A stretch of DNA of 32,000 nucleotides from Candidatus Iainarchaeum sp. (GTDB lineage Archaea; Iainarchaeota; Iainarchaeia; Iainarchaeales; CSSED10-239): assembly GCA_037441475.1 (NCBI GenBank), contig JBBISB010000001.1:336418-368417 (forward strand), given 5' to 3'. The notes beneath the pieces were generated by a model, which saw only the letters and a list, made by a program, of their open reading frames with translations, was not told where the DNA came from and made no database searches. Both the position numbers and the translations under genes were made by a program. Below, one piece after another: positions 15,793-32,000 of this stretch (positions are counted from its first letter, which is position 1; every line of letters begins with the position of its first letter).

Positions 15793-15809
15793 ATTTTTTA
15801 AAAAAAAAA

Positions 15810-16142: not shown

Positions 16143-16173
16143 TTTTTTTATCACATTTAAAATAAATAAAATG

Positions 16174-16373: not shown

Positions 16374-16731
16374 AAGAAAAAGATTTATTTAAGATAGGGA
16401 AGCCTTCAAATCACATCAGTTTACCAATAAAACCTGGTTTGGGTTTGCTTCCCTAACTATCGCGTTTGCTTTTTATCGTCATACTACTTTAACACCACCT
16501 CCTAGATGAAAAAACTCACCTGAAAACATACTTACTAGGATTCTCATGCTCTTGAGGTCTCAAATCCATAAGTATATGGTCTGTAACCCTTATATATCTT
16601 CACCTTAAAAGGATAGGCAAAAAAGTACACTCTTTATTTTTAAAATATACCAGATACCTATTCACTTAGAAGGAAAGTAAAAAAAACAGCTAATTAATAT
16701 TAAAAAATTAATAGATACATAAACAAAAAAA
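16374..16731. ncRNA. ORF-free gap with possible structured RNA (unassigned)
   Basis: 358 nt with no ORF in the track (shortest listed is 60 aa). The central part is visibly more G/C-rich than other spacers. It has a perfect 9-bp stem (16395-16403 tagggaagc / 16447-16455 gcttcccta) and a 6-bp stem (16500-16505 / 16535-16540). I could not fit it to RNase P or SRP RNA architecture by eye. Confidence 0.25.
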
Positions 16732-18102
16732 CTAGATTAAAAACTTCTCTTTAGTTATAAAAAAGTCTGTTAAGAAATCAGCTAAAAAATCATCCTCTAA
16801 AAACAACTCATTTATCTCTGCACCAACATATATTTTATTTTTCAAATCAAAGGATTGTGAAAAATCAGTAATGATTGCTTTTGCAGAAGTCTTATCTCTC
16901 TTTCTAATAACATACCATCTATCATCTTTAATGAAAGGACCTAAGATAGAACGATTGTTTGTTAAATAGTTTTGAGAACTTTTATAATCAGTTACAAGAG
17001 GACCAATTATTTTTTTAAACTTAGGTAGATCTAAGGTGTTTAAAAGCATTATTAAATAACATTTATCTTGCCCCTCTGTATGATAAACATCATACTTTAA
17101 GACATCAAAGTCAGAGAACTCTAAATGAGTAATTAATTTTGTAGTACTGCTTTTAACTTTTGACCAGATAGTCTCCTTAAGCATATCCTTAACTTCAAAG
17201 CTTACAATAGCTACAGAAAAATTTTCAAGCTTACCTACAAGTTGATGATAAGTTACTTGAGGAATATTTCTTTTTTTAAAAAACTCAATAGAAGGATTTT
17301 CTAAGAAAGCACGAGAAGAGGCTATAAACAAACTAAGTTGTTGTAAGCTTACAGCTGATGCTACATTTCTAGAATCATCAATAGGGTCAATTACAACTAA
17401 GCTTTCAGAAAATCTTGCAAGATTAACATGCTGTTCTTTAAGTAAAGTAAACTTTACTGGAGTATGCCAGTTTGAGGCATTTTCAAGAACTGTTCTAAAA
17501 TCACCATAGAACAATATTAAAAGCTCACAAAGGTATCCTGAGAAACCAGAAACTGATGTGTCTGCTCCATAAGCACCAACATGCTTTAAAAAATACTTTA
17601 AAAGTCTTGTTTCATCTTTCTGTGTTTGAGACATGTTCTTTAAAATAAACATTAGATGTAAGACAGTTCTATCTACAGCAGAAATGATTGGCTCGTTTGG
17701 CTCTATCTTATAAGCAGGAACAACCTCTACCTTATGATCATCAATTACTCCTCTTATATATGGATGTTGGGAGTATGCTTTTTCCCAAAAATTACCTTTA
17801 AAGGTTTTTTGACCAATAGCTAAACCCTCTTCTATAAATTTATTTTTTTCAAGAGAAGGAGGGTAAAGAACAAAGATATCAAAGTCCTTTGTATCTTTAA
17901 GGTTTGTGCCTTTTCCAAAAGAACCTGCACATACTGCTGAAAGATGAGAACCAGATGTTTTTTCTATTTTTTTTAAAAGATTGTCAATAAATTTTTTTTT
18001 TTTAATAGTCTGAGAGCTAGTTGGTTTTATTTCATCAAGAAGTTCTTTTCTTGTTCTTTTAAAAAGAGCAAGTTTAGATTTATCAAGACCAATTGCACTC
18101 AT
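16732..18102 (-). CDS. cca: CCA-adding enzyme (archaeal class I tRNA nucleotidyltransferase)
   Basis: 456 aa. 'CAGSFGKGTNLKDTKDFDIFVLY' is the GS....T......D.D class I polymerase-beta motif. 'RLLKYFLKHVGAYGADTSVSGFSGYLCELLILFYG' matches the archaeal CCA enzyme core. Confidence 0.8.
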   Translation of the reverse strand: MSAIGLDKSKLALFKRTRKELLDEIKPTSSQTIKKKKFIDNLLKKIEKTSGSHLSAVCAGSFGKGTNLKDTKDFDIFVLYPPSLEKNKFIEEGLAIGQKTFKGNFWEKAYSQHPYIRGVIDDHKVEVVPAYKIEPNEPIISAVDRTVLHLMFILKNMSQTQKDETRLLKYFLKHVGAYGADTSVSGFSGYLCELLILFYGDFRTVLENASNWHTPVKFTLLKEQHVNLARFSESLVVIDPIDDSRNVASAVSLQQLSLFIASSRAFLENPSIEFFKKRNIPQVTYHQLVGKLENFSVAIVSFEVKDMLKETIWSKVKSSTTKLITHLEFSDFDVLKYDVYHTEGQDKCYLIMLLNTLDLPKFKKIIGPLVTDYKSSQNYLTNNRSILGPFIKDDRWYVIRKRDKTSAKAIITDFSQSFDLKNKIYVGAEINELFLEDDFLADFLTDFFITKEKFLI

Positions 18103-18216
18103 AATTATAATTATAGAACATAAATAATATAAATAGATTCATAGGTGTTTTTTACATGTCCCCTATAATCTAATTATTTAGGTCTATTATGTTTATATCA
18201 TCAAAGGTATTTTAAT

Positions 18217-19014
18217 TTATTGAGAAAGGTTATCATCCGTTGAAAGATTTTCATCAATTATTAAATTTTCATCATCTAAAACATTTTCATCCACTGAAGG
18301 GTTCTCTGTTGGAGTGTTTTGTAAATTATTTATTTTTTCTTGAACATTACCTAAAGACTCTTCAATTAACCTTGCATCTTTAAACATCTGGTTAAAAGAT
18401 ATTACTAAAGAAAGATAAACATCTTCTTTTTTATTAGGAATAACTATAAGTAACTTTTCTTGTAAATTTAAGATAACTTGTGAAGATGTATTACCAGAGG
18501 AAAGATAATTAACCATAATTGTTGAAAAGTTAGAATCAATTAATGATAAACACTCTTCTTTATTAAGTTCATTATTTTCATAAACACTTCCCTGGTTTGA
18601 TTGACAGTAAAGAAGATTATTCTCCTCATCAACAACAGAGATTAAAAGAATTACATTCTTATTTTTAGCAGAAAGCATAGATTGAGTGTATACAATACCA
18701 TCGATTACTGAAGAAAGATAGTTTGTATCCGTGTAATTGTAATTAAAGATAACTAAAAAGTTTTCATCTTGAGAAAATATTTCAAAACCTTCCTTTATGT
18801 GAAAACCCTCTGAAATAAACTTTATTTTACTTTCTCTATCTGTAAAATAGTATCTGTTTTCAATAATTATTTTATTTAAGATTAAAGCAAGTAAGATGAT
18901 TACTACAAATATTAAAAATAACTTAATTATTAATTTTTTTCTTCTTTTCATTAAAGAATTATGTTTTATTTCTTTAACAGTTTGTGTTTTTGCAGAAACT
19001 AATGCTTGAGCCAT
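18217..19014 (-). CDS. hypothetical membrane-anchored protein with acidic C-terminal repeats
   Basis: A single N-terminal TM segment 'LIIKLFLIFVVIILLALILNKII'. The C-terminus has the reiterated motif 'DENVLDDENLIIDENLSTDDNLSQ'. No family recognised. Confidence 0.45.
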   Translation of the reverse strand: MAQALVSAKTQTVKEIKHNSLMKRRKKLIIKLFLIFVVIILLALILNKIIIENRYYFTDRESKIKFISEGFHIKEGFEIFSQDENFLVIFNYNYTDTNYLSSVIDGIVYTQSMLSAKNKNVILLISVVDEENNLLYCQSNQGSVYENNELNKEECLSLIDSNFSTIMVNYLSSGNTSSQVILNLQEKLLIVIPNKKEDVYLSLVISFNQMFKDARLIEESLGNVQEKINNLQNTPTENPSVDENVLDDENLIIDENLSTDDNLSQ

Positions 19015-19022
19015 ATATCATT

Positions 19023-19517
19023 TCACATTTTTAAGTATTTGTTTATTTTTTTTATATTTAACTTAAGGTCTTTTGTAACCTCAATAGGTATAAAATCAAT
19101 TTTTCTTGAAGAAAGCTTGTTTTCAAAGTAATTTGTTTTAGAGCAAAGAATATTTTCTTCAATCTTTAAGACATCATACCCTCTCTCCCTCATTTTATCT
19201 CTTTGAAACTTTTCAGGGGTGTTTAAAATAAAAATAAAATCCATTTTTTTTAAAGTTAATTTAGGTAGTTCACAGAATAAATGTCCTTCAAAGATAATAT
19301 TTTGTTTCTTCTTTAAAAGAAAACTAACTTTTTTAGCAAGTAAAGGAAGGGAAACTTCATACTCCTTTGTTTCTTTATTTTCCTCACCAAGATTGTTCTT
19401 TGTAGAAAACTCCTTATCGTTTATTACAATAAACTTTTGAAAAGGAAATTTCTTTTTAATCTCGTTTGCAATTGTTGATTTTCCTGAGGCTACTGGTCCT
19501 GTAATTACAAAGTACAT
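19023..19517 (-). CDS. Fap7/AK6-like P-loop nucleoside kinase (putative adenylate kinase)
   Basis: P-loop 'ITGPVASGKSTIANEI', 'FEGHLFCELP' and 'RERGYDVLKIEENILCS' follow the Fap7/adenylate kinase isoenzyme 6 pattern. 164 aa. Confidence 0.6.
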   Translation of the reverse strand: MYFVITGPVASGKSTIANEIKKKFPFQKFIVINDKEFSTKNNLGEENKETKEYEVSLPLLAKKVSFLLKKKQNIIFEGHLFCELPKLTLKKMDFIFILNTPEKFQRDKMRERGYDVLKIEENILCSKTNYFENKLSSRKIDFIPIEVTKDLKLNIKKINKYLKM

Positions 19518-19520
19518 AAA

Positions 19521-21413
19521 TTATCTAAGTCTCACACTTTCTAAGTTTTGGATAGCTAAGGTGTTGATATGGAACTTCTTTGAAACAAACTTTGAAAACT
19601 CTTGACAGGAGTCCCCGTGGTTTATTAAAATAGTTTTTGGTTTTGGGTTTAAGCTTGAAATGTAGTTTAGAAGTTCTTGACGGTAAGCGTGTCCTGAGAA
19701 GGCATCTATTGTTTCTATCTTTAAAAGAATATTTAAAGTTTTTGTTTTACCTTGAGAGTCTGTTATTACCATTGACTTTAGACCCTTTTGTACCTTTTGC
19801 CCTAAACTGTTCTTTGCTTGGTAACCTACAAAGACTAAGGAGTTTTTAGGGTTGTCTGCAAGCTCATTAAAGTAAGAGACTGAAGGGCCACCTGTAAGCA
19901 TACCTGAAGAAGCAATGATTATTGCACCAGGTGTGTTTAAAACTGCTTCACGGTTGTTTTCTTCATAATCAACAGCTCTAAAAAGCTTTGAAGAGAATGG
20001 AGAGTTATTTTGTAAAACTCTTGTCTTAATATTCATTTTTAAATATTCAGGGTAGACTGTGTGTATTAAAGAAGCCTCTCTTGTCATACCATCAATAAAT
20101 ACATTTTGTGATTTTAGTTTACCTCTTCTAAAATAATCCTCTAAAACAATCATTACCTCTTGAGCACGACCTACAGAGAAGACAGGGATTAAAGTTGTCC
20201 CTCCTCTATCAAAGGTGTCGTTAAGAGTATCTATTAAATGATCCTCTGATTTATTTCTTGAAGGGTTTAATGGCTTACCACCGTATGTACTCTCTAAGAT
20301 CAAAGTATCAACTCTTGGATAACTTGCATCCATGTTGTTGTAAAGTCTTGTAAAACCGTACTTAATATCAGCAGAGTAAACTAAGTTATGTTTACCATCA
20401 CCTATGTGTAGATGAGCAGAAGCTGAACCTAGGATGTGTGAGGAGTTATAGAAGGTAAGTCTTATTCCAGGAGCAATGTCTGTTACTTCTCTGAAGTTTT
20501 TAGTTATACAGTGTTTTATAACTTGCTTAACATCCTCTTCACCGTAAAGAGCCTCTCTTCCTGATTTTTCAGAAACAGAAATTGCATCTAAAAGTAAAAG
20601 AGCCATGATGTCCTTTGTTGGTTCTGTACAGTAAACAGGGCCTCTATAACCTGCTCTAAAAAGAAAAGGAAGGAAACCAACATGATCGATGTGTGCGTGG
20701 GTTATAACAATTGCATCAAGTTCCTCTAAAGGAAACCTTATAACTCCAAAGAAAGGAGCTTCTTCGTTTTTATCAGCTGGGTTAATACCACAATCTAAAA
20801 GAATTTTTGTATCTGGAGTTTCTAAAAGAATAGCACTTCTTCCAACCTCTCTAAAACCACCTAAAGCTGTCATTCTTACCCAGTCTTTGGTGCTTACTGG
20901 AGGAGAATATATTTTTTGTGCAACATCTTTTAAAAATTGTTTTCTCTCTGTGTTGTTTTTAATTGCATACCCTCTTATTTTTTTCATGATCTCAGATGGC
21001 TCAATTGGTGCTCTTAATATTTTAGGGATCCATTTTGTTTCTTTAATAATAGCTTTTGAAACATCTCCTAATTTACCTATAACTACACCTGGCTTTTCAG
21101 CTTCAATTACAACTTCTGAAAAAACACCATCAAAGGCAATTGATTTTATGCCTGCATCTTCGGGTATTATTTTTTTTATAACATTATAGGCTTCAGCAGA
21201 GTCCATTAAAGCAGACTTGTCTGTTCTAATGTTAATTCTTTTTTTAAATTTTTCTGCAATCTCACCTACAATTGTTTTATTATCAAAAAAAGAATAAGTG
21301 TCTGAGGTATAGATAGCTATCTCTGAGGCTTCAGGTTCAATTTTTGAAAAAATCATTTTCTTCTCTATAAGAAGAGTTGATATTTGTTTTTTAATATTGT
21401 CGAATAAATCCAT
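19521..21413 (-). CDS. aCPSF1 (FttA) beta-CASP ribonuclease with N-terminal KH domains
   Basis: 630 aa. The KH-like N-terminus includes 'VVIGKLGDVSKAI'. Metallo-beta-lactamase motif 'ITHAHIDHVGFLPFL'. The beta-CASP region includes 'LILESTYGG' and 'FSGHA'. Length and order are typical of aCPSF1. Confidence 0.85.
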   Translation of the reverse strand: MDLFDNIKKQISTLLIEKKMIFSKIEPEASEIAIYTSDTYSFFDNKTIVGEIAEKFKKRINIRTDKSALMDSAEAYNVIKKIIPEDAGIKSIAFDGVFSEVVIEAEKPGVVIGKLGDVSKAIIKETKWIPKILRAPIEPSEIMKKIRGYAIKNNTERKQFLKDVAQKIYSPPVSTKDWVRMTALGGFREVGRSAILLETPDTKILLDCGINPADKNEEAPFFGVIRFPLEELDAIVITHAHIDHVGFLPFLFRAGYRGPVYCTEPTKDIMALLLLDAISVSEKSGREALYGEEDVKQVIKHCITKNFREVTDIAPGIRLTFYNSSHILGSASAHLHIGDGKHNLVYSADIKYGFTRLYNNMDASYPRVDTLILESTYGGKPLNPSRNKSEDHLIDTLNDTFDRGGTTLIPVFSVGRAQEVMIVLEDYFRRGKLKSQNVFIDGMTREASLIHTVYPEYLKMNIKTRVLQNNSPFSSKLFRAVDYEENNREAVLNTPGAIIIASSGMLTGGPSVSYFNELADNPKNSLVFVGYQAKNSLGQKVQKGLKSMVITDSQGKTKTLNILLKIETIDAFSGHAYRQELLNYISSLNPKPKTILINHGDSCQEFSKFVSKKFHINTLAIQNLESVRLR

Positions 21414-21596
21414 ATATGTTCACGTATGTGTTTTTTGTAAAAAAGTTTTTTTAAATATAAAGTATAAATATTTACGTTTATTTAAGAAAATAATTGTTTA
21501 AATGTTTTTTTATTAAAAAAATGTAAAAAAATAAATTTACATTTTTATATAATAGAAGTTTTTTTATAAAAGGTAAAAAAATAATTAAAAAAGAAA

Positions 21597-22202
21597 TTAC
21601 TTATATTTTTCAATAGGTAATTCTTCAATACCATCTTTTTTAATTACAACAATCTTTATTCCATCCCCACCTGTAAAAAGATCTCTTTTCTTTGCAGAGG
21701 TAATAGCTTCTTTTGCAATTTCAATTGCATCTTTAACAGTTAAAGAGGATTTGTAGTTTTTATCAAGAACACTTAAAGCAAGTTCTGAACCAGATCCTGA
21801 GAAAGAAAAATTTTCTTCCTTTGAAAAACCACCAAGCATGTCAAGAGAATAAAGGTCTTGATCTGAACCTGCAAGTATTAATTGAGAGTAGTAAGGGATC
21901 ATTTTACTTGAGTTTAAGATGTTTGATAAAAGAGTAACACATGATTTTGTGCTTAAAGCCCTTTTATGTTCAAGCTCATAAAGGTTTGCATGATTTTGTA
22001 AGTATCTAACTAAGACCATGGCATCTCCAACTGAACCTGCAATTGTCATTGCTATTCTGTCGTTTATTTTATATATTTTTGTTGTGTTGTTGTTAACAGC
22101 TAAGTTACCCATAGAAGCTTGCATGTCTGCTGCTAAGATGATACCATCTTTTGCAACAATACCAACTGTTGTTGTGCCTGTCTTTAATGTTTTATCTGTC
22201 AA
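21597..22202 (-). CDS. psmB: proteasome subunit beta
   Basis: A short propeptide followed by 'KTGTTTVGIVAKDGIILAADMQAS', with the catalytic Thr after Gly. 201 aa. The first 21 codons lie inside repeat copy A. Confidence 0.9.
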   Translation of the reverse strand: MTDKTLKTGTTTVGIVAKDGIILAADMQASMGNLAVNNNTTKIYKINDRIAMTIAGSVGDAMVLVRYLQNHANLYELEHKRALSTKSCVTLLSNILNSSKMIPYYSQLILAGSDQDLYSLDMLGGFSKEENFSFSGSGSELALSVLDKNYKSSLTVKDAIEIAKEAITSAKKRDLFTGGDGIKIVVIKKDGIEELPIEKYK

Positions 22203-22272
22203 AATTATTCACCTTTCTTATTACTTAATTTTTGAACGAAATTAACGTTTTCAAAACTTGTAGAATCAAAAA

Positions 22273-22914
22273 CTAACTTTGCAAAAACAATTGTTTAAAA
22301 TAATCTATTTCTTGAGGAACTCCAAAAGGAAGTTCTACTGAAACATCTTTTTCTTTAGAGCTTAACTTTAATTGTCCAGCAGGCATAAAGTAAAAAGACT
22401 TTTCTAAAAGAAGAGGTAATTTGTCTTCATCCTTTGAAATAACTTTATTAATTGTTATTGTGTATTCTAAATCTCTTCCAGCATAGATAGGGTTAAAGTC
22501 AACCTTTACTCTTCCACCAGAAATTGAAATTATCTTACCTGATTTGTTGCCTATGTTTACAAATAAACCAACTTCAGGTCTTACATTTTCTTTTTTAAAT
22601 TCATTTAAAGAAACAAGTTCTACTTTATTTGAATCTCTATCTTTGAAAGCTTGTTCTTTTTTTAAGAGGAAAGTTTTTGTTTTTCCTATATCTAAATCAG
22701 AGATATTATCTTCAATACCTTTTAATAATTCGCCAGTTCCGAAAAGATAGTTTAAAGGTTTATATTCATTCTTTAAGTTTAAGTTATTTTCTTTTGCCAC
22801 TTCTTTTTTAGTTGTGTCAAGTATTTCTTTTGTGTTTGCGTCTTTTAAAATAAGATCAATTTCTACAATGTCTTTTGTTTTTATCATATTAATAAACCTC
22901 TTTTGTGTAATCAT
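22273..22914 (-). CDS. FKBP-type peptidyl-prolyl cis-trans isomerase (archaeal long type with insert-in-flap), copy A
   Basis: 'KPLNYLFGTGELLKGIEDNISDLDIGKTKTFLL', a long insert, then 'GRVKVDFNPIYAGRDLEYTITINKV' (the FNHPLAGK.L.F pattern). The likely true start is the Met at 22887 ('MIKTKD'). Confidence 0.75.
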   Translation of the reverse strand: MITQKRFINMIKTKDIVEIDLILKDANTKEILDTTKKEVAKENNLNLKNEYKPLNYLFGTGELLKGIEDNISDLDIGKTKTFLLKKEQAFKDRDSNKVELVSLNEFKKENVRPEVGLFVNIGNKSGKIISISGGRVKVDFNPIYAGRDLEYTITINKVISKDEDKLPLLLEKSFYFMPAGQLKLSSKEKDVSVELPFGVPQEIDYFKQLFLQS

Positions 22915-23117
22915 AGAATTAATGTTTTCATTTACCTATTTACAACTGTTTTATAAACTTTAAAGCAGTATCAAAAATAGGATTTTTATAAAAGTAGATG
23001 TTTTATATAATATATTAATGAACCGATTTGCTTAAAAAGATTTGTTTTTATGTAGCTTTAAGGGGTAAGCACAAATTATTTATTAAATTTTAAAATATTA
23101 AAGAAATTATAAAAAAA

Positions 23118-23471
23118 TTACTCTAACAACCATTTCCAGACAGGAATTACTTTATTATCTATATTAAACTCATCTTCTTGATAATAAGTTAATATGTACC
23201 CTATTTTTAATTTAAAAAAATCCATAGCGAAAACTAATCCTTTAATTTCCCTATCTTTATTATTATCATTTAACTCAAAACAAACTTGATAAGTTTCAAA
23301 AGATTTATCTTTAGCTATAAAATCACATTCAGAATTATCTTCATTAAAATAAGTAATTTCTTTTCCTTTTCTAATCAATTCTAAAAAAACAATATTTTCA
23401 AGTAAATGTCCTTTATCTTGATATCTTTGGAAAGTTAATATATTTCTTAAACAAGATTGGCACAGAATATG
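23118..23471 (-). pseudogene. 3' remnant of a DUF4143-type AAA ATPase gene, copy A
   Basis: The open frame from 23471 reads '...QRYQDKGHLLENIVFLELIRKGKEITYFNEDNSECDFIAKD...IPVWKWLLE'. This matches only the C-terminal ~110 aa of archaeal ATPases of this type (G.L.EN.V..EL...G....Y......E.DF.). No P-loop region lies upstream. Confidence 0.55.
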
Positions 23472-23551
23472 CTAAAAAAATCTAATTTGTTGGCATTAAC
23501 AGTTCCAATAAAACCAACAATATTTTTAATGTTAAATTAAACATAAATATA

Positions 23552-24562
23552 TTATTTAATATTTAAAGTACTTAAGAGATTATAAGAGTTTGAATGCTTT
23601 GCATAATCTAAAAAAGAAAAAAGAGAAGCCCTGAAGTTAAGTATAGAAATTTTATTTTGTTTTAGTAAATAATTATTTTTATTTTGCCTTTTTAGAAATC
23701 TTTTAACATTTGATTTTTTTAATCTTATGTTTGAAGGAAATACCTTATAACCTAAAAAATCAACACCTTTGCTTACTAAGTTAATATAAATTTTATTCTT
23801 TGGAACATCTAATAATAGTTCTTTACTTAAAAATAATTTAATTTTTCTTCTAAAAACCTTTAAATCTTTTTTAGAGTTTGAAAATATTAAAAAATCATCA
23901 ACATATCTATAATAAAGTTTAATTTTCAAAGTATGCTTAACATATTGATCTAATTGATTTAGATAAATATTTGCAAACAACTGAGAAGTTAAATTACCTA
24001 TAGGAATTCCTTTTTCAGTATTATTTACATTAAAAGAATAACTATCAATTATTTGATATATTAGAGAAAGTAACCTTTCATCCTTAATTCTTTTTTTGAT
24101 TATTCTTTTTAAAGTGGGTTTATGAACAGAAGGAAAGTATTTTTTAACATCTTGGTTTAAATAATATTTTGGAGGATTAGTGGTTTGAATGACATTTTTA
24201 ATTTCAAAAAGGCCTTTATGTGTGCCTTTTCCTTTTCTGCAAGCAAAGGAATTATTTATAAAAGTTTTATCAAAAATAGGTTCTATGATATTAATTATTG
24301 AATGTTGAACAACTACATCTCTAAAAGTTGGAGCACTAATAATTCTTTATTTAGGTTCATAAACTTTAAAACTTCTGTAAGGAGAAAATTGAAAATTTTC
24401 TGAAATTAATTGATCTTGTAATAAAAATAGCTCCTTTTCTAAATTTGTTGTAAATTGCAAGACATATTTTTTATTAGGTGTTGATTTTTTTGCTTTTTTA
24501 TAAGCATTAAAAAGATTTTTAAAAGAAGTAAACTCTTTCCAAAGGTTATTGTATGATTTCAT
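23552..24562 (-). pseudogene. DGR-type reverse transcriptase with one in-frame TAA (24347-24349), copy A
   Basis: I hand-translated 23981-24346 in the same frame as both tracked ORFs. It reads '...FKVYEPK*RIISAPTFRDVVVQHSIINIIEPIFDKTFINNSFACRKGKGTHKGL...KYFPSVHKPTL...GIPIGNLTSQLFANIYLNQLD...YYRYVDDFLIF...GVDFLGYKV'. RT motifs 1-7 are all present and the stop is the only disruption. 'IGNLTSQ' is the DGR-clade signature in motif 4. Confidence 0.85.
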
Positions 24563-24799
24563 TTTTAAAAAAACTTATTTAAAGTTAAAAGTTATTACAG
24601 ATTTCTTTTTACAGACTATAAAAATACTAAATGTAATAACTTATCTTTATATTTGATTTTTTAACATAAAAACAATAAAGTTTTTATGGCATACATCATA
24701 TGCAATCAGGAAACATTTTACAGATGTAGTTTTTTAAAATATTCGCTTTATATGTTTTTTTAAAAAAAACAAAAATATAACATATAAACTCTGATAAAA

Positions 24800-24821
24800 C
24801 CTTATTTCTTTAAAAATAAGG
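24800..24821 (-). terminator. hairpin plus T-run just downstream of the DGR target stop, copy A
   Basis: 8-bp stem ccttattt (24800-24807) / aaataagg (24814-24821) with a 6-nt loop. It starts 5 nt after the TAG on the minus strand and is followed by TTTTA. Confidence 0.35.
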
Positions 24822-24826
24822 AGAAA

Positions 24827-26194
24827 CTACTGAACGCAGCGCAAGCCGAAGAAGTCGGTCCGGCTTGTAGGAATGTTGGTCAAGTTCAGGGACAAGACAC
24901 CGGCACTAGAGTCATTGAGCCAGCGACCACCGCGCAAAAAAGCGTATACAGTCTTACTTGTGTCATTTATATTACTATAAGTATAAAGCCTACCAACACC
25001 ATTATTCGCATTATAACTATTACTTGTAAGTAAAAATAAATCTTTATACTTTAAAGTAGTGTTACCTAAATTATCAGAATAAATATATTGGTTTCCTCCA
25101 CCACCTTTTGAATAATCAAAAAAATTAAAGCCAGAAGTATAATTACTATCATCAGAATTATTAAATCCATCAGGCTGGTCTTTTATTTGGATAGTATCAC
25201 TAGTCCATTGCCAAACATTACCTGCTAAATCCCAAATTACCTCTCCATTAGTTAAAGTTAAAGTTCTTTTTGTAATTCCTGAAAGCTCGTCAAAACCGTC
25301 CATGGCCCTAGAGGATGATGAATTTCCTCTTGGAAGGTATCCTGAACCAACTTCTCCACCAGACCAGTTGGAGGGAACTTGTTCAATATTTCTTACAATT
25401 GTCATCCATTCGTTATTAGTTATTAAATGACCACCGATAGCTTCACAAGCGGCTATTGCTTCGGTTTGGGTAATTCTTACTATTGGAGAGCCTTCTGGAG
25501 TGGACACTAAGGTTCCTGGTGTTGGACATAATTCATAATTATAAGTATTAGATGTTAAAGAACCAGTATTACAATTAGGATAATCAGCTACAAGATTTCC
25601 TTTGCCATCACCATTTACATCCATTTTCATCTGATATTTTGAAACACAAAAACCCCCTCTTTCATTCATTGTACCATAAAGGTGGTTTCCAGGAACAGGA
25701 ATAAATCCTTCTGGACAAGAAGATGGATATTTAATATTTTGACGAAGAGAGGTTTTGGTTATCATTCTATCATTATCAAGGTAAAAAACAATATTTAAGT
25801 TGTCTTCTAAAATACCATGATCAATTACTGCTGTCTGGTTTGCAGTAATTGTTACTGGTGGGTCTAATGGATTAATATTAGTATTTCCGTGCAAGGAATA
25901 ACCAGTTATGGTTAAAGAGGTGAAAGGAGAACCATAAGGAGGATTATACTCTAAAATAGTTCTGCCATTTATGGAATCTTTTACTTGCAAATAAAAAGAA
26001 GTTTCTGATTCTGTGTAAATATCAAGACTTGAGGTTTTACCTAAGGAATCATTGGTAAAACCTTTTCCCCAAGAAACAATTATTGCAATAATAGCAACAG
26101 CAACAACTATTAAAAGAATGGTTGCAATTAATGGAGAAATTCCTTTCCTTTTTTTATTTTCCATTTGAAAAAAAATATTTGTATCTATACTCAT
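24827..26194 (-). CDS. DGR target protein: class III (type IV pilin-like) signal peptide plus C-terminal FGE-sulfatase/C-type-lectin-fold domain, copy A
   Basis: N-terminus 'MENKKRKGISPLIATILLIVVAVAIIAIIVSW' is an archaeal pilin-type signal, so the likely start is the Met at 26164. FGE/SUMF1-type motifs are 'GGHLITNNEWMTIVRN', 'WDLAGNVWQWTSD' and 'AFLRGGRW...FFGLRCVQ*'. Confidence 0.8.
   Translation of the reverse strand: MSIDTNIFFQMENKKRKGISPLIATILLIVVAVAIIAIIVSWGKGFTNDSLGKTSSLDIYTESETSFYLQVKDSINGRTILEYNPPYGSPFTSLTITGYSLHGNTNINPLDPPVTITANQTAVIDHGILEDNLNIVFYLDNDRMITKTSLRQNIKYPSSCPEGFIPVPGNHLYGTMNERGGFCVSKYQMKMDVNGDGKGNLVADYPNCNTGSLTSNTYNYELCPTPGTLVSTPEGSPIVRITQTEAIAACEAIGGHLITNNEWMTIVRNIEQVPSNWSGGEVGSGYLPRGNSSSSRAMDGFDELSGITKRTLTLTNGEVIWDLAGNVWQWTSDTIQIKDQPDGFNNSDDSNYTSGFNFFDYSKGGGGNQYIYSDNLGNTTLKYKDLFLLTSNSYNANNGVGRLYTYSNINDTSKTVYAFLRGGRWLNDSSAGVLSLNLTNIPTSRTDFFGLRCVQ
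24830..24946 (-). other. candidate DGR variable region (VR), copy A
   Basis: The last ~39 codons ('AFLRGGRWLNDSSAGVLSLNLTNIPTSRTDFFGLRCVQ') form a compositional island. By hand count about 61 of 105 nt in 24831-24935 are G+C, against very AT-rich flanks. This is the position where CLec/FGE-fold DGR targets carry their VR. Confidence 0.6.
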
Positions 26195-26203
26195 AAATGA
26201 TCT

Positions 26204-26268
26204 AACATAATATATATAAACATAATATATATAAACATAATATATATAAACAAATTATATATATATAA
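26204..26268. repeat. 15-bp tandem repeat, three perfect copies plus a degenerate fourth
   Basis: 'cataatatatataaa' occurs at 26206-26220, 26221-26235 and 26236-26250, followed by 'caaattatatatata'. It lies directly upstream (minus strand) of the DGR target gene. Each unit reads 'tttatatatattatg' on the coding strand, which is TATA-box-like. Confidence 0.8.
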
Positions 26269-26331
26269 GAAGATAATATTTATAAAGATATCTAAAGTAA
26301 ATAAAACTAATAAGTTAAAAAAAAATAAAAA

Positions 26332-26535
26332 TTACTTAGTAATTTTTACAAAATAATAAATATCTTTTCCGATACTTGAAAAATCAACCTTAACATTATT
26401 TACAGCCATTTTATCTAAAAAATCCTTATATGAAATACCAGCAATGTCTGCTACCTCTGATAAAGAAATACTTCTTATTTGATATGCTTTAAAAACTAAC
26501 TTTAGATTTTTAGAGAATTTATTATTTATATCCAT
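26332..26535 (-). CDS. UPF0175-like small HTH protein (antitoxin-like), probable
   Basis: 67 aa. 'AYQIRSISLSEVADIAGISYKDFLDKMAVNNV' follows the UPF0175 pattern (LY....ISLG.AAE.AG.S...F...L....I). No PIN or DUF3368 partner is adjacent. Confidence 0.45.
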   Translation of the reverse strand: MDINNKFSKNLKLVFKAYQIRSISLSEVADIAGISYKDFLDKMAVNNVKVDFSSIGKDIYYFVKITK

Positions 26536-26645
26536 AAATATATTATTTATAATAATCTTTTTAAAAGTGAGTAATTAATAAAAAGAAGTATTATATTATC
26601 TTCTCTATAATAGTATATAGAAAGAAATAATAAAAAAAGAAAAAC

Positions 26646-28538
26646 ATGTATTCAAAAGAAGAAATTACAAAGAAGATACTTGACATTAACAAATACGAAA
26701 AACTAAACCCTATGCAAAACTTAGCAAAAGAACATATAGGGACAAACACACTTATCACAACACCAACAGCTTCTGGAAAAACAACAGTCTTTGAAATGTA
26801 CATGCTTGACTGTTTATTAAACAAGAAAAAAAAAGCAATTTACATCTCTCCCTTAAAAGCATTAACAACAGAACATTATTTAGAAACTAAAAGAAAGTTT
26901 TCAAAAGAATTTAACCTAAAAATAGGACTTTCAACTGGAGACCTGGATTCAAGTAACAAATATCTTGAAAGTTATGATGTTTTATTTTTAACATATGAAA
27001 AATTTGATTCAATTCTAAGACATAAACCTTCATGGTTAAAAAATATTGGACTTTTAACAATTGATGAAATTCATGAGCTTGGATCAAATAGAGGTTCAAC
27101 CTTAGAAGTTATAATTACACAACTAAAACATAGCTATAGAGAAATTACTCTTCTAGGGTTATCTGCAACCATTAAAAACTCAAAAGAAATATCTGATTGG
27201 CTTTCTGCAAAACTAGTTTTAAGTAACTACCGACCAGTTCCTCTTGAAACTGGAGTTTTTTATAATGATTCTATTTACTTTGAAGATAGAAAAGAAGACT
27301 TAACTTCTCTTACTGTTAAAAACATTAATTTAGGATCAATCATTAAAGACACTTTAAAGAAAGAAAAACAAGCAATTGTTTTTTGTGCATCTAGAAAAAA
27401 TGCAATGTCGTTTGCAAAAAAATATGGAAAAATAATCTCTGGAAGTTTAAAAGATGAAGAATACCAAAAACTTAGAAAAGCCTCTCAAGAGGTTTTAGAA
27501 GCTTTAGAACACCCAACAAAACAATGTGAAAAACTTTCTCTTTCTCTTTTAATGGGTTCAGCATTTCATCATGCAGGACTGGTCTATAAACAAAGAGAAG
27601 TGGTTGAAGAAAATTTTAAGAAAGGAAACATCAAAGTTATTTTTGCAACACCAACTCTTGCAGCTGGAATTAACCTACCAGCCTTTAGGGTGATTATAAA
27701 CAGTGTTTTTAGATTTTCAGAAGGATCAATGGTTCCAATACCAGTTAATGAATTTCAACAAATGGCAGGAAGAGCAGGAAGACCAAGGTATGATAAAAAA
27801 GGAGAGGCAATCTGTGTGGTTAACAAAGAAGGAGATATACCTAAGATATATAACACATATATAATATCTGGACCTTCAAACATAGACTCACAACTATCTA
27901 AAATAAACATCCTAAGAGGACATCTTTTATCAATGATTCTCATAAACAACCTTAGGTCTTTAGAAGAAGTAATCTCTTATATTTCTAAAACATTTTATTA
28001 TTTTGTTTATGGAAACACAAGTGAGATTAGAAAAAACATACAAGAGATTATTTCTGAGTTTATTGGGTATGGTTTTTTAGAAAAGAAAGAAACTGGTTTT
28101 GAGATTACCTCTTTAGGTAAGAAAGTGTGTTATCTTTATATTGATCCTCTTTCAGCAAACAACATCTTAAAAGATTTAGACTTAAAGAAAGAGAAAGATA
28201 CTAAGGTTTATGAAAAAATATTTACAGTTGTTAATACCTCTGAAATGGCGCCTTATCTTGTATACAAGCAAGAGAAAGAAAATGATTTGTTTGTTTTTTT
28301 TGAAGAGATTAGAAAGAACATTTATTTTGAATATGAGGATATTTATCTTTTACAAAAACTATATATGACAAAAATTATTCATGAGTGGATTGAAGAAAGA
28401 GAAGAAAATTCTTTACTTGAAGAATATAACACAACACCTGGACAGATTAGAGATATTATTTCAAGAGCAAAATGGATATGCCACTCTACAGATACCATCT
28501 TTTGCAACAATACCAACTGTTGTTGTGCCTGTCTTTAA
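26646..28538 (+). CDS. Ski2/Hel308-like superfamily 2 helicase, 3'-truncated at the repeat junction
   Basis: Motif I 'TPTASGKTTVFE', motif II 'DEIHELG', motif III 'SAT', then 'FHHAGL', 'ATPTLAAGINLPA' and motif VI 'QMAGRAGRP'. Native sequence ends at codon 615 (28490). The last 15 codons (DTIFCNNTNCCCACL) are antisense to the psmB 5' end. Confidence 0.8.
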   Translation: MYSKEEITKKILDINKYEKLNPMQNLAKEHIGTNTLITTPTASGKTTVFEMYMLDCLLNKKKKAIYISPLKALTTEHYLETKRKFSKEFNLKIGLSTGDLDSSNKYLESYDVLFLTYEKFDSILRHKPSWLKNIGLLTIDEIHELGSNRGSTLEVIITQLKHSYREITLLGLSATIKNSKEISDWLSAKLVLSNYRPVPLETGVFYNDSIYFEDRKEDLTSLTVKNINLGSIIKDTLKKEKQAIVFCASRKNAMSFAKKYGKIISGSLKDEEYQKLRKASQEVLEALEHPTKQCEKLSLSLLMGSAFHHAGLVYKQREVVEENFKKGNIKVIFATPTLAAGINLPAFRVIINSVFRFSEGSMVPIPVNEFQQMAGRAGRPRYDKKGEAICVVNKEGDIPKIYNTYIISGPSNIDSQLSKINILRGHLLSMILINNLRSLEEVISYISKTFYYFVYGNTSEIRKNIQEIISEFIGYGFLEKKETGFEITSLGKKVCYLYIDPLSANNILKDLDLKKEKDTKVYEKIFTVVNTSEMAPYLVYKQEKENDLFVFFEEIRKNIYFEYEDIYLLQKLYMTKIIHEWIEEREENSLLEEYNTTPGQIRDIISRAKWICHSTDTIFCNNTNCCCACL

Positions 28539-28553
28539 TGTTTTATCTGTCAA
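28491..28553 (-). pseudogene. duplicated 5' fragment of psmB (codons 1-21) with its upstream region
   Basis: Identical to 22140-22202 (MTDKTLKTGTTTVGIVAKDGI). Past the junction the frame continues as CRVAYPFCS* through sequence antisense to the helicase. Confidence 0.8.
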
Positions 28554-28623
28554 AATTATTCACCTTTCTTATTACTTAATTTTTGAACGAAATTAACGTT
28601 TTCAAAACTTGTAGAATCAAAAA

Positions 28624-29265
28624 CTAACTTTGCAAAAACAATTGTTTAAAATAATCTATTTCTTGAGGAACTCCAAAAGGAAGTTCTACTGAAACATCTT
28701 TTTCTTTAGAGCTTAACTTTAATTGTCCAGCAGGCATAAAGTAAAAAGACTTTTCTAAAAGAAGAGGTAATTTGTCTTCATCCTTTGAAATAACTTTATT
28801 AATTGTTATTGTGTATTCTAAATCTCTTCCAGCATAGATAGGGTTAAAGTCAACCTTTACTCTTCCACCAGAAATTGAAATTATCTTACCTGATTTGTTG
28901 CCTATGTTTACAAATAAACCAACTTCAGGTCTTACATTTTCTTTTTTAAATTCATTTAAAGAAACAAGTTCTACTTTATTTGAATCTCTATCTTTGAAAG
29001 CTTGTTCTTTTTTTAAGAGGAAAGTTTTTGTTTTTCCTATATCTAAATCAGAGATATTATCTTCAATACCTTTTAATAATTCGCCAGTTCCGAAAAGATA
29101 GTTTAAAGGTTTATATTCATTCTTTAAGTTTAAGTTATTTTCTTTTGCCACTTCTTTTTTAGTTGTGTCAAGTATTTCTTTTGTGTTTGCGTCTTTTAAA
29201 ATAAGATCAATTTCTACAATGTCTTTTGTTTTTATCATATTAATAAACCTCTTTTGTGTAATCAT
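28624..29265 (-). CDS. FKBP-type peptidyl-prolyl isomerase, copy B
   Basis: 213-aa translation identical to 22273-22914. Confidence 0.75.
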   Translation of the reverse strand: MITQKRFINMIKTKDIVEIDLILKDANTKEILDTTKKEVAKENNLNLKNEYKPLNYLFGTGELLKGIEDNISDLDIGKTKTFLLKKEQAFKDRDSNKVELVSLNEFKKENVRPEVGLFVNIGNKSGKIISISGGRVKVDFNPIYAGRDLEYTITINKVISKDEDKLPLLLEKSFYFMPAGQLKLSSKEKDVSVELPFGVPQEIDYFKQLFLQS

Positions 29266-29468
29266 AGAATTAATGTTTTCATTTACCTATTTACAACTGT
29301 TTTATAAACTTTAAAGCAGTATCAAAAATAGGATTTTTATAAAAGTAGATGTTTTATATAATATATTAATGAACCGATTTGCTTAAAAAGATTTGTTTTT
29401 ATGTAGCTTTAAGGGGTAAGCACAAATTATTTATTAAATTTTAAAATATTAAAGAAATTATAAAAAAA

Positions 29469-29822
29469 TTACTCTAACAACCATTTCCAGACAGGAATTA
29501 CTTTATTATCTATATTAAACTCATCTTCTTGATAATAAGTTAATATGTACCCTATTTTTAATTTAAAAAAATCCATAGCGAAAACTAATCCTTTAATTTC
29601 CCTATCTTTATTATTATCATTTAACTCAAAACAAACTTGATAAGTTTCAAAAGATTTATCTTTAGCTATAAAATCACATTCAGAATTATCTTCATTAAAA
29701 TAAGTAATTTCTTTTCCTTTTCTAATCAATTCTAAAAAAACAATATTTTCAAGTAAATGTCCTTTATCTTGATATCTTTGGAAAGTTAATATATTTCTTA
29801 AACAAGATTGGCACAGAATATG
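29469..29822 (-). pseudogene. DUF4143-type ATPase 3' remnant, copy B
   Basis: Identical to 23118-23471. Confidence 0.55.
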
Positions 29823-29902
29823 CTAAAAAAATCTAATTTGTTGGCATTAACAGTTCCAATAAAACCAACAATATTTTTAATGTTAAATTAAACATAAATA
29901 TA

Positions 29903-30913
29903 TTATTTAATATTTAAAGTACTTAAGAGATTATAAGAGTTTGAATGCTTTGCATAATCTAAAAAAGAAAAAAGAGAAGCCCTGAAGTTAAGTATAGAAA
30001 TTTTATTTTGTTTTAGTAAATAATTATTTTTATTTTGCCTTTTTAGAAATCTTTTAACATTTGATTTTTTTAATCTTATGTTTGAAGGAAATACCTTATA
30101 ACCTAAAAAATCAACACCTTTGCTTACTAAGTTAATATAAATTTTATTCTTTGGAACATCTAATAATAGTTCTTTACTTAAAAATAATTTAATTTTTCTT
30201 CTAAAAACCTTTAAATCTTTTTTAGAGTTTGAAAATATTAAAAAATCATCAACATATCTATAATAAAGTTTAATTTTCAAAGTATGCTTAACATATTGAT
30301 CTAATTGATTTAGATAAATATTTGCAAACAACTGAGAAGTTAAATTACCTATAGGAATTCCTTTTTCAGTATTATTTACATTAAAAGAATAACTATCAAT
30401 TATTTGATATATTAGAGAAAGTAACCTTTCATCCTTAATTCTTTTTTTGATTATTCTTTTTAAAGTGGGTTTATGAACAGAAGGAAAGTATTTTTTAACA
30501 TCTTGGTTTAAATAATATTTTGGAGGATTAGTGGTTTGAATGACATTTTTAATTTCAAAAAGGCCTTTATGTGTGCCTTTTCCTTTTCTGCAAGCAAAGG
30601 AATTATTTATAAAAGTTTTATCAAAAATAGGTTCTATGATATTAATTATTGAATGTTGAACAACTACATCTCTAAAAGTTGGAGCACTAATAATTCTTTA
30701 TTTAGGTTCATAAACTTTAAAACTTCTGTAAGGAGAAAATTGAAAATTTTCTGAAATTAATTGATCTTGTAATAAAAATAGCTCCTTTTCTAAATTTGTT
30801 GTAAATTGCAAGACATATTTTTTATTAGGTGTTGATTTTTTTGCTTTTTTATAAGCATTAAAAAGATTTTTAAAAGAAGTAAACTCTTTCCAAAGGTTAT
30901 TGTATGATTTCAT
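29903..30913 (-). pseudogene. DGR-type reverse transcriptase with the same in-frame TAA (30698-30700), copy B
   Basis: Both tracked ORF pieces are identical to copy A and the stop is at the same position. Confidence 0.85.
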
Positions 30914-31177
30914 TTTTAAAAAAACTTATTTAAAGTTAAAAGTTATTACAGATTTCTTTTTACAGACTATAAAAATACTAAATGTAATAACTTATCTTTA
31001 TATTTGATTTTTTAACATAAAAACAATAAAGTTTTTATGGCATACATCATATGCAATCAGGAAACATTTTACAGATGTAGTTTTTTAAAATATTCGCTTT
31101 ATATGTTTTTTTAAAAAAAACAAAAATATAACATATAAACTCTGATAAAACCTTATTTCTTTAAAAATAAGGAGAAA

Positions 31178-32000
31178 CTACTGAACGCAGCGCAAGCCGA
31201 AGAAGTCGGTCCGGCTTGTAGGAATGTTGGTCAAGTTCAGGGACAAGACACCGGCACTAGAGTCATTGAGCCAGCGACCACCGCGCAAAAAAGCGTATAC
31301 AGTCTTACTTGTGTCATTTATATTACTATAAGTATAAAGCCTACCAACACCATTATTCGCATTATAACTATTACTTGTAAGTAAAAATAAATCTTTATAC
31401 TTTAAAGTAGTGTTACCTAAATTATCAGAATAAATATATTGGTTTCCTCCACCACCTTTTGAATAATCAAAAAAATTAAAGCCAGAAGTATAATTACTAT
31501 CATCAGAATTATTAAATCCATCAGGCTGGTCTTTTATTTGGATAGTATCACTAGTCCATTGCCAAACATTACCTGCTAAATCCCAAATTACCTCTCCATT
31601 AGTTAAAGTTAAAGTTCTTTTTGTAATTCCTGAAAGCTCGTCAAAACCGTCCATGGCCCTAGAGGATGATGAATTTCCTCTTGGAAGGTATCCTGAACCA
31701 ACTTCTCCACCAGACCAGTTGGAGGGAACTTGTTCAATATTTCTTACAATTGTCATCCATTCGTTATTAGTTATTAAATGACCACCGATAGCTTCACAAG
31801 CGGCTATTGCTTCGGTTTGGGTAATTCTTACTATTGGAGAGCCTTCTGGAGTGGACACTAAGGTTCCTGGTGTTGGACATAATTCATAATTATAAGTATT
31901 AGATGTTAAAGAACCAGTATTACAATTAGGATAATCAGCTACAAGATTTCCTTTGCCATCACCATTTACATCCATTTTCATCTGATATTTTGAAACACAA
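31178..32000 (-). CDS. DGR target protein, copy B (C-terminal 267 aa visible; 5' part beyond the window)
   Basis: The translation is identical to the C-terminal part of 24827-26194, including the candidate VR (31181-31297). Confidence 0.8.
   Translation of the reverse strand, partial: CVSKYQMKMDVNGDGKGNLVADYPNCNTGSLTSNTYNYELCPTPGTLVSTPEGSPIVRITQTEAIAACEAIGGHLITNNEWMTIVRNIEQVPSNWSGGEVGSGYLPRGNSSSSRAMDGFDELSGITKRTLTLTNGEVIWDLAGNVWQWTSDTIQIKDQPDGFNNSDDSNYTSGFNFFDYSKGGGGNQYIYSDNLGNTTLKYKDLFLLTSNSYNANNGVGRLYTYSNINDTSKTVYAFLRGGRWLNDSSAGVLSLNLTNIPTSRTDFFGLRCVQ

What the first reader, a model, noticed from the sequence alone, without database searches (positions are those of the whole stretch)
22140..32000. 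Apparently perfect direct repeat with a 6,351-nt period carrying the whole DGR cassette
ORF pairs 22273/28624, 23118/29469, 23552/29903, 24347/30698 and 24827/31178 are all offset by 6,351 nt with identical translations. The intergenic stretches I compared (22915-23117 vs 29266-29468, and 24563-24826 vs 30914-31177) show no mismatch. Identity begins at 22140 = 28491, and the preceding bases differ (gctaagat vs cactctaca). Copy B runs off the window, so the repeat is at least 3,510 bp. The simplest model is a head-to-tail tandem duplication of the unit 22140-28490. That unit holds the psmB 5' end, FKBP, the ATPase remnant, the RT, the target, the UPF0175 gene and helicase codons 1-615. I saw no transposase, integrase or terminal inverted repeats. 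Zero divergence means either a very recent event (possibly an amplification of the surface-protein cassette) or an assembly artefact.
Basis: seen in the sequence. Interest (0 to 1): 0.75.

Follow-up and report, generated by a model that had tools for sequence, protein, structure and literature searches.

The report
Read-supported 6.35-kb tandem duplication in DPANN archaeon
A 6,351-base stretch of a tiny archaeal genome is written twice in a row, and an independent assembly of raw reads breaks at exactly the two duplication boundaries, so the join is probably real; it is an ordinary segmental duplication, and the diversity-generating retroelement inside it is a dead relic.

Summary
Window 22140-25649 equals 28491-32000 exactly. 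In the parent contig (GCA_964526055.1, 671,531 bp) the identity runs the full 6,351 nt plus one shared G. Copy B ends inside an intact 704-aa Hel308-type helicase, as the tandem model predicted.

Fourteen syntenic loci from relatives (Diapherotrites near Ca. Forterrea) each show the locus once. None shows the helicase-to-psmB junction.

Four Logan contigs from run SRR11582163 are 100% identical to the window. They end at 22169, 22140, 28491 and 34813. Those are the positions a k=31 de Bruijn graph gives when there are two ways into the unit's first base and two ways out of its last. The junction is therefore read-supported, not a post-assembly concatenation.

This also suggests the MAG is a short-read assembly. 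If so, both copies may be one graph path walked twice, and "zero divergence" and "two copies" carry no information.

The "whole DGR cassette" claim is wrong:
- VR and TR have recombined into one hybrid, deleting Avd and the template.
- The RT has a GAA-to-TAA nonsense codon.

Verdict: a real but ordinary non-homologous tandem duplication (about 0.75). One oddity remains: the reads appear heterogeneous inside the VR.

The parts
22140..28490 (.). Copy A of the 6,351-nt repeat unit (record CAZGHU010000001.1 358,732-365,082)
   Evidence: Exact identity to 28491-34841.
28491..32000 (.). Copy B of the unit. It is cut by the window end and runs to window-equivalent 34841 in the parent contig.
   Evidence: Copy B plus the right flank is collinear with the single-copy relative L003.
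28490..28491 (.). Novel junction joining helicase codon 615 to psmB codon 21 (antisense). There is 1 nt (G) of microhomology and no other homology within +-300 nt of the two native breakpoints.
   Evidence: Alignments to the relative stop at L001 11845 and 11847, flanking the junction.
21597..22202 (-). Intact proteasome beta subunit gene (psmB, 201 aa). Its first 21 codons (22140-22202) lie inside the unit.
   Evidence: Pfam Proteasome, E 5.9e-51.
28491..28553 (-). Orphan psmB 5' fragment in copy B (21 codons), which reads on into antisense helicase to give a 30-aa ORF.
22273..22914 (-). FKBP26-type gene. A 2-nt insertion near 22288-22289 relative to four orthologues truncates the C-terminus. 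Second copy at 28624-29265.
   Evidence: Pfam FKBP26_IF; alignment A3.
23118..23378 (-). Remnant (86 aa) of the C-terminus of an AAA_14/DUF4143 ATPase. Second copy at 29469-29729.
   Evidence: 90% identical to the end of the 419-aa ATPase of L011 and L006.
23552..24562 (-). DGR-type reverse transcriptase pseudogene. It is 336 codons, collinear with intact orthologues, and has one in-frame TAA at 24347-24349 (GAA in relatives). Second copy at 29903-30913.
24825..24942 (-). Single VR/TR hybrid at the 3' end of the target gene. Its upstream flank is VR-type and its downstream flank is TR-type. Second copy at 31176-31293.
   Evidence: Alignments A1 and A2. No other VR/TR-like sequence in window-equivalent 1-45430.
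24827..26194 (-). DGR target gene (455 aa) with an N-terminal pilin-like signal and an FGE-sulfatase/C-type-lectin-fold C-terminus. The second copy starts at 31178 and runs off the window.
   Evidence: Pfam FGE-sulfatase 2.6e-10, Pilin_N weak; homologues.
26204..26286 (.). 15-nt AT-rich tandem array (AACATAATATATATA, 4-5 copies) just upstream of the target gene.
   Evidence: Logan contig L026 ends inside it at 26223.
26332..26535 (-). UPF0175 antitoxin-like fragment (67 aa, against 107 aa in L003). The adjacent 181-aa gene of L003 is absent here.
26646..28538 (+). Truncated Hel308/Hjm-type helicase: codons 1-615 plus 15 junction-encoded residues. It lacks the end of domain 4 and the helix-hairpin-helix domain 5.

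Best explanation
The organism is a Forterrea-like DPANN archaeon (Diapherotrites/Iainarchaeota). In it, a 6,351-bp chromosomal segment has been duplicated head to tail by a non-homologous join with 1 nt of microhomology. The join links helicase codon 615 to psmB codon 21.

The likely route is unequal sister-chromosome exchange or a replication template switch. This step is inferred.

The outer genes stay intact: psmB on the left and the 704-aa helicase on the right. The centre gains a truncated helicase (615 + 15 aa) and an orphan 21-codon psmB start. The segment also carries second copies of a frameshifted FKBP gene, an ATPase remnant, a dead DGR (RT pseudogene plus target gene with a fused VR/TR) and a UPF0175 fragment.

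The junction exists in raw reads. The copy number (2 or more) and the perfect identity of the copies are not measured, because the assembly probably walked one graph path twice. No function need be assumed. The duplication may be a neutral, transient polymorphism or a dosage amplification.
For: Shown:
- Exact 6,351-nt tandem repeat in a 671-kb contig, with copy B running into the native helicase 3' end.
- Both outer flanks are collinear with single-copy relatives, and alignments stop at the junction.
- Fourteen syntenic loci from relatives were examined. None shows a second copy of the unit or a helicase-to-psmB junction, and the seven that span psmB to helicase hold the interval once.
- Four Logan contigs of SRR11582163, each seen in 2 samples, are 100% identical to the window. 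They end at 22169 (left flank + 30 nt), 22140 (unit start), 28491 (unit end including the shared G) and 34813 (right flank - 30 nt).
- That pattern is the k=31 de Bruijn signature of two predecessors at the unit's first base and two successors at its last base. It is the opposite of the pattern a deletion variant would give.
- The other contig ends checked fall on explicable graph features: the tRNA-Ser repeat at 16174, the 15-nt array at 26223, and the VR at 24849. The breaks are therefore not random coverage gaps.
- No mobile-element genes, inverted repeats or breakpoint homology.

Inferred: the alternative partner at both branches is the junction present in the MAG.
Against: No reads, depths or mate pairs were available. 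The approximately 60-nt junction unitig itself could not be retrieved from Logan. The second predecessor and successor are therefore identified with the junction only through the MAG sequence.

The sequencing technology and assembler of GCA_964526055.1 could not be established. It is unknown whether the two Logan samples are independent libraries.

Long perfect tandem repeats are expected to be lost quickly by homologous recombination. A majority-frequency duplication would therefore need recency or selection.
Confidence: 0.75

Rival explanations
1. Library-level or assembler artefact. The junction comes from chimeric molecules (for example amplification chimeras), or from a minor subpopulation, and the assembler's loop traversal turned it into a two-copy consensus that does not represent the dominant genome.
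For: The copies are identical, as expected if one graph path was used twice. Copy number is not measured. All relatives are single copy. The exact breakpoint 24-mer is absent from JGI metagenomes.
Against: The branch survived Logan's contig-level graph cleaning at both boundaries, and the same contigs are recorded in 2 samples. From my knowledge of such pipelines, low-coverage chimeric links are normally removed. A chimera would have to recur at one exact base pair.
Confidence: 0.12
2. The chromosome is single copy and the junction belongs to a 6,351-bp extrachromosomal circle of the unit, for example a pop-out product. This gives the same assembly graph as a tandem duplication.
For: Graph topology cannot separate a circle from a tandem duplication.
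Against: The boundaries have no att-like core (1 nt only), no integrase or recombinase, and no replication gene or orc1/cdc6 in the unit. The boundaries cut two housekeeping genes. A non-replicating circle should not reach assembly-level abundance.
Confidence: 0.06
3. Post-assembly artefact. Either two contigs overlapping by 6,351 bp were concatenated, or a circular contig with an untrimmed terminal overlap was rotated. No read would contain the junction.
For: The boundaries fall at arbitrary places inside genes with about 1 nt of microhomology, and identity is perfect.
Against: Independent k=31 contigs from a single run break at exactly 22140/22169 and 28491/34813. That requires alternative adjacencies in the reads themselves. 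The record is also a WGS contig, not a finished rotated chromosome.
Confidence: 0.03
4. Mobile-element-mediated or dispersed duplication. The unit would be a transposable or integrative element with a second copy inserted next to the first.
For: The FKBP-to-helicase interval is a variable island in the clade. It is empty, ATPase-only, DGR, or DGR+ATPase in different genomes.
Against: The unit's ends lie inside psmB and the helicase, not at the island's borders. There is no transposase or integrase, no terminal repeats and no target-site duplication. Copy B abuts copy A with no spacer.
Confidence: 0.02

Closest known systems
Spontaneous tandem segmental duplication or amplification in prokaryotes by illegitimate recombination (as studied in Salmonella and E. 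coli; Reams & Roth, cited from my own knowledge)
   Same: Head-to-tail copies with no spacer. A novel join point links a distal to a proximal site with 0-few nt of microhomology. The outer genes are intact and the central genes are chimeric or truncated. The copies are identical.
   Different: Seen here in an uncultured, genome-reduced DPANN archaeon from metagenome data. Copy number, population frequency and any selective driver are unknown.
Assembly-graph loop (repeat edge traversed twice) in short-read metagenome assemblies
   Same: Perfect identity of the copies. Single-run k=31 contigs break at the unit's boundaries.
   Different: A loop needs a real junction sequence in the reads. The boundaries share only 1 nt, so the loop cannot be a k-mer coincidence.
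Diversity-generating retroelements of DPANN archaea (Paul et al. 2015 and 2017, cited from my own knowledge). Intact examples here are L003 and Ca. Forterrea multitransposorum L007.
   Same: RT with the IGNLTSQ and YVDD motifs. Target gene with a C-terminal FGE-sulfatase/CLec-fold VR. Same chromosomal site as the intact DGRs of relatives, whose TR/VR pairs differ only at TR adenines.
   Different: No TR and no Avd or 128-aa accessory gene. VR and TR are fused into one hybrid. The RT has a nonsense codon. This is a relic, not a working cassette.
Hel308/Hjm Ski2-type archaeal DNA helicase (PDB 2zj2, 2p6r, 2va8)
   Same: The full-length copy aligns end to end with the solved structures (E 1e-127 to 1e-110).
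   Different: The junction copy stops at residue 615. It lacks the last part of domain 4 and the HhH domain 5, which is described as auto-inhibitory in the Hel308 literature (my knowledge). Expression and activity are untested.

Membership tests
Head-to-tail tandem duplication | Two adjacent copies in the same orientation with no spacer | tested here: met
   6,351-nt period; identity run of 6,352 nt starts at 22140 and copy B starts at 28491.
Head-to-tail tandem duplication | Outer flanks collinear with the unduplicated ancestral arrangement, with only the central join novel | tested here: met
   L003 aligns continuously across both outer boundaries. Alignments stop at L001 11845 and 11847 at the junction. 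The seven relatives' loci that span psmB to helicase hold the interval once.
Head-to-tail tandem duplication | Junction present in sequencing reads | tested here: inconclusive
   Indirect but strong. Four Logan k=31 contigs end at 22169, 22140, 28491 and 34813, exactly as predicted.
Head-to-tail tandem duplication | About 2x read depth over the unit and outward-facing read pairs | not testable with these tools
   No read data.
Functional diversity-generating retroelement | Intact reverse transcriptase ORF with DGR motifs | tested here: not met
   The motifs are present (IGNLTSQ, YVDD), but codon 72 is TAA where the orthologues have GAA.
Functional diversity-generating retroelement | TR/VR pair differing at TR adenines | tested here: not met
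   Only one VR/TR-like segment per copy in 45 kb. Relatives L003 and L007 have the pair.
Functional diversity-generating retroelement | Accessory variability determinant (Avd) | tested here: not met
   bAvd is present in L003 and L007 and absent here. The interval between target and RT is 264 bp.
Functional diversity-generating retroelement | Target gene with a C-terminal CLec/FGE-sulfatase-fold variable region | tested here: met
   Pfam FGE-sulfatase; the VR-like 3' end aligns to the VRs of relatives.
Transposon or integrative element | Transposase/integrase, terminal repeats, and a target-site duplication or att core | tested here: not met
   None in the unit. No inverted repeats of 40 nt or more. 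Breakpoints share 1 nt.
Hel308/Hjm helicase | Full five-domain architecture | tested here: met
   Met for the 704-aa copy B gene, which aligns over residues 32-694 to 2zj2. Not met for the 630-aa junction copy.

The most novel reading that the evidence does not exclude
The two copies may not be identical in the cells. The independent contig L023 stops at 24849, and the next base is the 3'-most TR-adenine-equivalent site of the VR. The reads therefore appear heterogeneous inside the VR even though the local DGR looks dead. If the two tandem copies (or more) carry different VRs, then segmental duplication is preserving or expanding surface-protein variants after the loss of the diversifying machinery. 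Alternatively, the DGR may still be serviced in trans by a TR and RT elsewhere in the genome.
Probability: 0.1. Interest if true: 0.6.

Novelty: new member of a known kind. Interest (0 to 1): 0.3.

Why it matters
The value is mostly practical.

1. It is a worked example of validating a "perfect repeat" in a MAG without reads. Independent k-mer-graph contigs break at predictable offsets (k-1) around real junctions.

2. It warns that in a short-read MAG, zero divergence and copy number of such repeats are assembler output, not biology.

3. DGR surveys would count two "cassettes" here. Both are the same relic, produced by VR x TR recombination, and a relative (L005) shows the same decay route.

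4. Biologically, it documents a non-homologous tandem duplication of about 1% of a roughly 0.67-Mb DPANN genome. It lies at a locus that varies across the Forterrea clade, and it creates a Hel308 copy lacking its C-terminal domain.

Tried and rejected
- **TR search.** I searched for a TR with low-stringency BLAST over the window and up to window-equivalent 45430, using the local VR and a relative's TR. Only the VR-like segments came up.
- **Source of the assembly.** Literature searches for GCA_964526055, CAZGHU01 and SRR11582163 found nothing. The MFD-LR paper holds no supplement text. The idea that the MAG is a Bin Chicken TPA rests only on the WGS prefix lying between two such prefixes, so it stays unproven.
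- **Long reads.** I first argued that a resolved perfect 6.3-kb repeat implied long reads. I dropped this after finding 700-kb short-read contigs for relatives (L012) and the Logan short-read contigs.
- **Rotated or concatenated overlap artefact.** Considered seriously, then rejected on the Logan contig ends.
- **Deletion-variant explanation of the branches.** Rejected. It predicts the opposite overhang pattern, with unit contigs extending into the flanks.
- **JGI metagenomes.** A scan for the 24-mer next to the breakpoint gave no hit.
- **Variant targets or an Avd from SRR11582163.** I looked for partial or variant target proteins and for an Avd gene. There was no near-identical target. The Avd hits I looked up came from other runs. 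P0154 and P0160 were not checked.
- **Rfam and tRNA scans.** Only three tRNA-Ser genes, unrelated to the repeat.
- **In-frame TAA as recoding.** Rejected, because the orthologues have GAA at that codon and other genes here end in TAA.
Full report
**1. Observation**

At an offset of 6,351 nt the window has one uninterrupted identity run: 22140-25649 equals 28491-32000, 3,510 nt, reaching the window end (repeat finder agrees). The bases just upstream differ (GCTAAGAT versus CTCTACA). Pfam confirms the gene content:
- proteasome beta subunit
- FKBP26-type protein
- RVT_1 reverse transcriptase
- an FGE-sulfatase-fold protein with a weak pilin-like N-terminus
- a UPF0175 fragment
- a DEAD/Helicase_C/archaeal-domain-4 helicase

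The 86-aa ORF is 90% identical to the C-terminus of a 419-aa AAA_14/DUF4143 ATPase in relatives.

**2. The parent contig settles the tandem model**

The 630-aa junction helicase is encoded on NCBI GCA_964526055.1, contig CAZGHU010000001.1, 671,531 bp. Window position 1 is record position 336,593.

In the fetched 21.9 kb the identity runs 6,352 nt. That is the 6,351-nt unit plus one ambiguous G. Copy A is window 22140-28490 and copy B is 28491-34841. After copy B, the helicase continues into a 704-aa ORF. This ORF aligns end to end with solved Hel308/Hjm structures.

The two native breakpoints share no homology beyond the single G. Only chance matches of 11 nt or less, out of register, occur within +-300 nt.

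**3. Relatives have the locus once**

A 90%-cluster mate of psmB led to Logan contig L003, which is 77-84% identical at the DNA level. Scans of GTDB genomes and JGI metagenomes with the helicase gave twelve more syntenic loci, alongside three distant ones (37-39% identity) that I did not use. With L003 and L004 that makes fourteen. They include the complete genome of Ca. Forterrea multitransposorum (CP045477.1, L007). The organism is thus a Diapherotrites/Iainarchaeota DPANN archaeon.

None of the fourteen loci shows a second copy of the unit or a helicase-to-psmB junction. The seven that span psmB to helicase each hold the interval once. L003 aligns continuously across both outer boundaries of the duplication. 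Its alignments to the inner copies stop at L001 11845 and 11847, flanking the junction.

The interval between FKBP and the helicase is a variable island in the clade:
- empty: L009, L016
- ATPase only: L011 (L006 shows the ATPase side only; its contig ends before FKBP)
- intact DGR: L003
- DGR plus ATPase: L007, L012
- collapsed DGR: L005

Probst & Banfield (PMC5905446) describe localised variation and homologous recombination in Forterrea.

**4. The DGR is a relic**

In L003 and L007 the locus holds a complete DGR. It comprises a target with a C-terminal VR, a 128-aa gene, bAvd, a TR and a 336-aa RT. TR and VR differences fall at TR adenines.

In the window there is only one VR/TR-like segment per copy. 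Alignments A1 and A2 show that its upstream flank is the target-gene (VR) flank, while its downstream flank is the TR flank (TTTCTCCTTATT...). A VR x TR recombination has therefore deleted about 1.1 kb, carrying the 128-aa gene, Avd and the template. L005 shows the same collapsed form.

The RT is collinear with its orthologues but has TAA instead of GAA at codon 72, window 24347-24349.

Other decay in the unit:
- a 2-nt insertion truncating FKBP
- a UPF0175 fragment of 67 aa against 107 aa
- loss of the neighbouring 181-aa gene
- the ATPase remnant

"Whole DGR cassette" is therefore wrong. This also removes the puzzle of two identical VRs next to an apparently complete DGR.

**5. Real or artefact?**

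I first considered a rotated or concatenated overlap artefact, which fits arbitrary boundaries and perfect identity. Exact-sequence look-ups then showed that many window proteins also occur in Logan.

Four Logan contigs from run SRR11582163, each recorded in two samples, are 100% identical to the window genome:

| Contig | Window-equivalent coordinates |
|---|---|
| L028 | 16174-22169 |
| L023 | 22140-24849 |
| L026 | 26223-28491 |
| L031 | 34813-42756 |

Consider a k=31 de Bruijn graph in which the unit's first base has two predecessors and its last base (plus the shared G) has two successors. The left-flank unitig must run k-1 = 30 nt into the unit, to 22169. The unit's unitigs must start at 22140 and stop at 28491. 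The right-flank unitig must start 30 nt before the first right-flank-specific base, at 34813.

All four predictions are met to the base. A coexisting deletion variant would give the opposite overhangs.

Three further ends fall on other graph features: the tRNA-Ser repeat (16174), the 15-nt tandem array (26223) and the VR (24849). L031's outer end (42756) was not examined. The breaks are therefore not coverage noise.

That Logan uses k=31 and removes weak links is from my own knowledge. The 30-nt overhangs fit it.

So alternative adjacencies at both boundaries exist in raw reads. The only candidate sequence is the junction in the MAG. Post-assembly concatenation is essentially excluded. Library chimeras or a minor subpopulation remain possible, but they must have survived graph cleaning in two samples.

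**6. Consequence for "zero divergence"**

The matching data set appears to be short-read. A short-read assembler can only emit this structure by traversing the unit's path twice. The perfect identity and the number "two" are then by construction. They do not date the event. Real copy number (2 or more) and frequency in the population need read depth.

**7. Mechanism**

The mechanism is inferred. The event is a non-homologous join (1-nt microhomology) between helicase codon 615/616 and psmB codon 21. It could arise by unequal sister exchange or by a template switch.

Its products are as follows:
- An intact psmB with its upstream region.
- An intact helicase.
- A central Hel308 copy of 615 + 15 aa. 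It lacks the end of domain 4 and the HhH domain 5, which is described as auto-inhibitory in the Hel308 literature (my knowledge).
- A 30-aa psmB-start ORF.

Nothing indicates a mobile element.

**8. Unexplained**

L023 ends at 24849. Position 24850 is the 3'-most site that is an adenine in the relatives' TRs: the window has TTC where the TRs have ATC. The exact 455-aa target is absent from Logan, although its neighbours are present. No near-identical partial target appears either.

The reads therefore seem heterogeneous within the VR. Three readings are possible: copy-specific VRs, many VR alleles in the population, or a coexisting intact TR. I found no Avd from this run, but the check was incomplete.

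**9. Verdict**

The tandem model is confirmed in the contig and indirectly in reads. The DGR claim is wrong. The inference from zero divergence is unsafe. This is an ordinary kind of event, a new instance of a known kind, with modest interest apart from the VR heterogeneity.

Noticed in passing
window 24825-24942 (and 31176-31293); L005 7062-7346: The DGR has collapsed by VR x TR recombination. A single hybrid segment has a VR-type upstream flank and a TR-type downstream flank, and Avd and the 128-aa gene are deleted. The same form occurs in the relative L005, whose RT is still intact. I cannot tell whether this is a shared event or a recurrent one.
   Followed up: yes
window 24849/24850: Logan contig L023 stops exactly before the 3'-most TR-adenine-equivalent base of the VR. 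The exact target protein is missing from Logan although its neighbours are present. The reads seem heterogeneous inside the VR of an apparently dead DGR.
   Followed up: partly
window 22288-22289 (FKBP gene 22273-22914; copy at 28624-29265): A 2-nt (TG) insertion relative to four orthologues shifts the frame and removes the last ~28 residues of the FKBP26-type protein. Downstream DNA is still conserved, so the lesion looks recent.
   Followed up: partly
window 22915-26645 compared with L003, L005, L006, L007, L009, L011, L012, L016: The FKBP-to-helicase interval is a hypervariable island in the clade: empty, AAA_14/DUF4143 ATPase only, intact DGR, DGR+ATPase, or collapsed DGR. In Forterrea (L007 3037-3132) a duplicated 32-codon RT 3' fragment flanks the ATPase gene, as if the ATPase had inserted into the RT's end.
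   Followed up: partly
window 26204-26286: A 15-nt AT-rich tandem array (AACATAATATATATA, 4-5 copies, TATA-box-like) lies immediately upstream of the target gene's start codon.
   Followed up: no
window 15599-16255: Cluster of three tRNA-Ser genes (anticodons CGA, GGA, UGA) on the minus strand, 72-86% alike. This is the only other repeat family in the window.
   Followed up: yes
L024 2392-4929 (window-equivalent ~37.9-40.5 kb): The eRF1 gene (845 aa) carries an intein with a LAGLIDADG homing-endonuclease domain, according to precomputed Pfam hits.
   Followed up: no
L001 18818-19459 (window-equivalent 35463-36104): A ParE-toxin-like gene (113 aa) and a 96-aa partner sit between DUF5654 and TruD. 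The relative L003 has nothing there.
   Followed up: no
L005 and L006 (both from MAG JAQVRT01): One published MAG contains two different versions of this locus: collapsed DGR on one contig, ATPase-only on another. Their helicases are 86% and 85% identical to the query. The bin probably mixes strains.
   Followed up: no
L003 7961-8971 vs L005 5916-6923 vs window 23552-24562: The RTs of L003 and L005 are 96% identical (324/337). The window's RT is only 78% identical to either of them. This suggests DGR exchange between lineages, or relaxed constraint on the window's pseudogene.
   Followed up: partly
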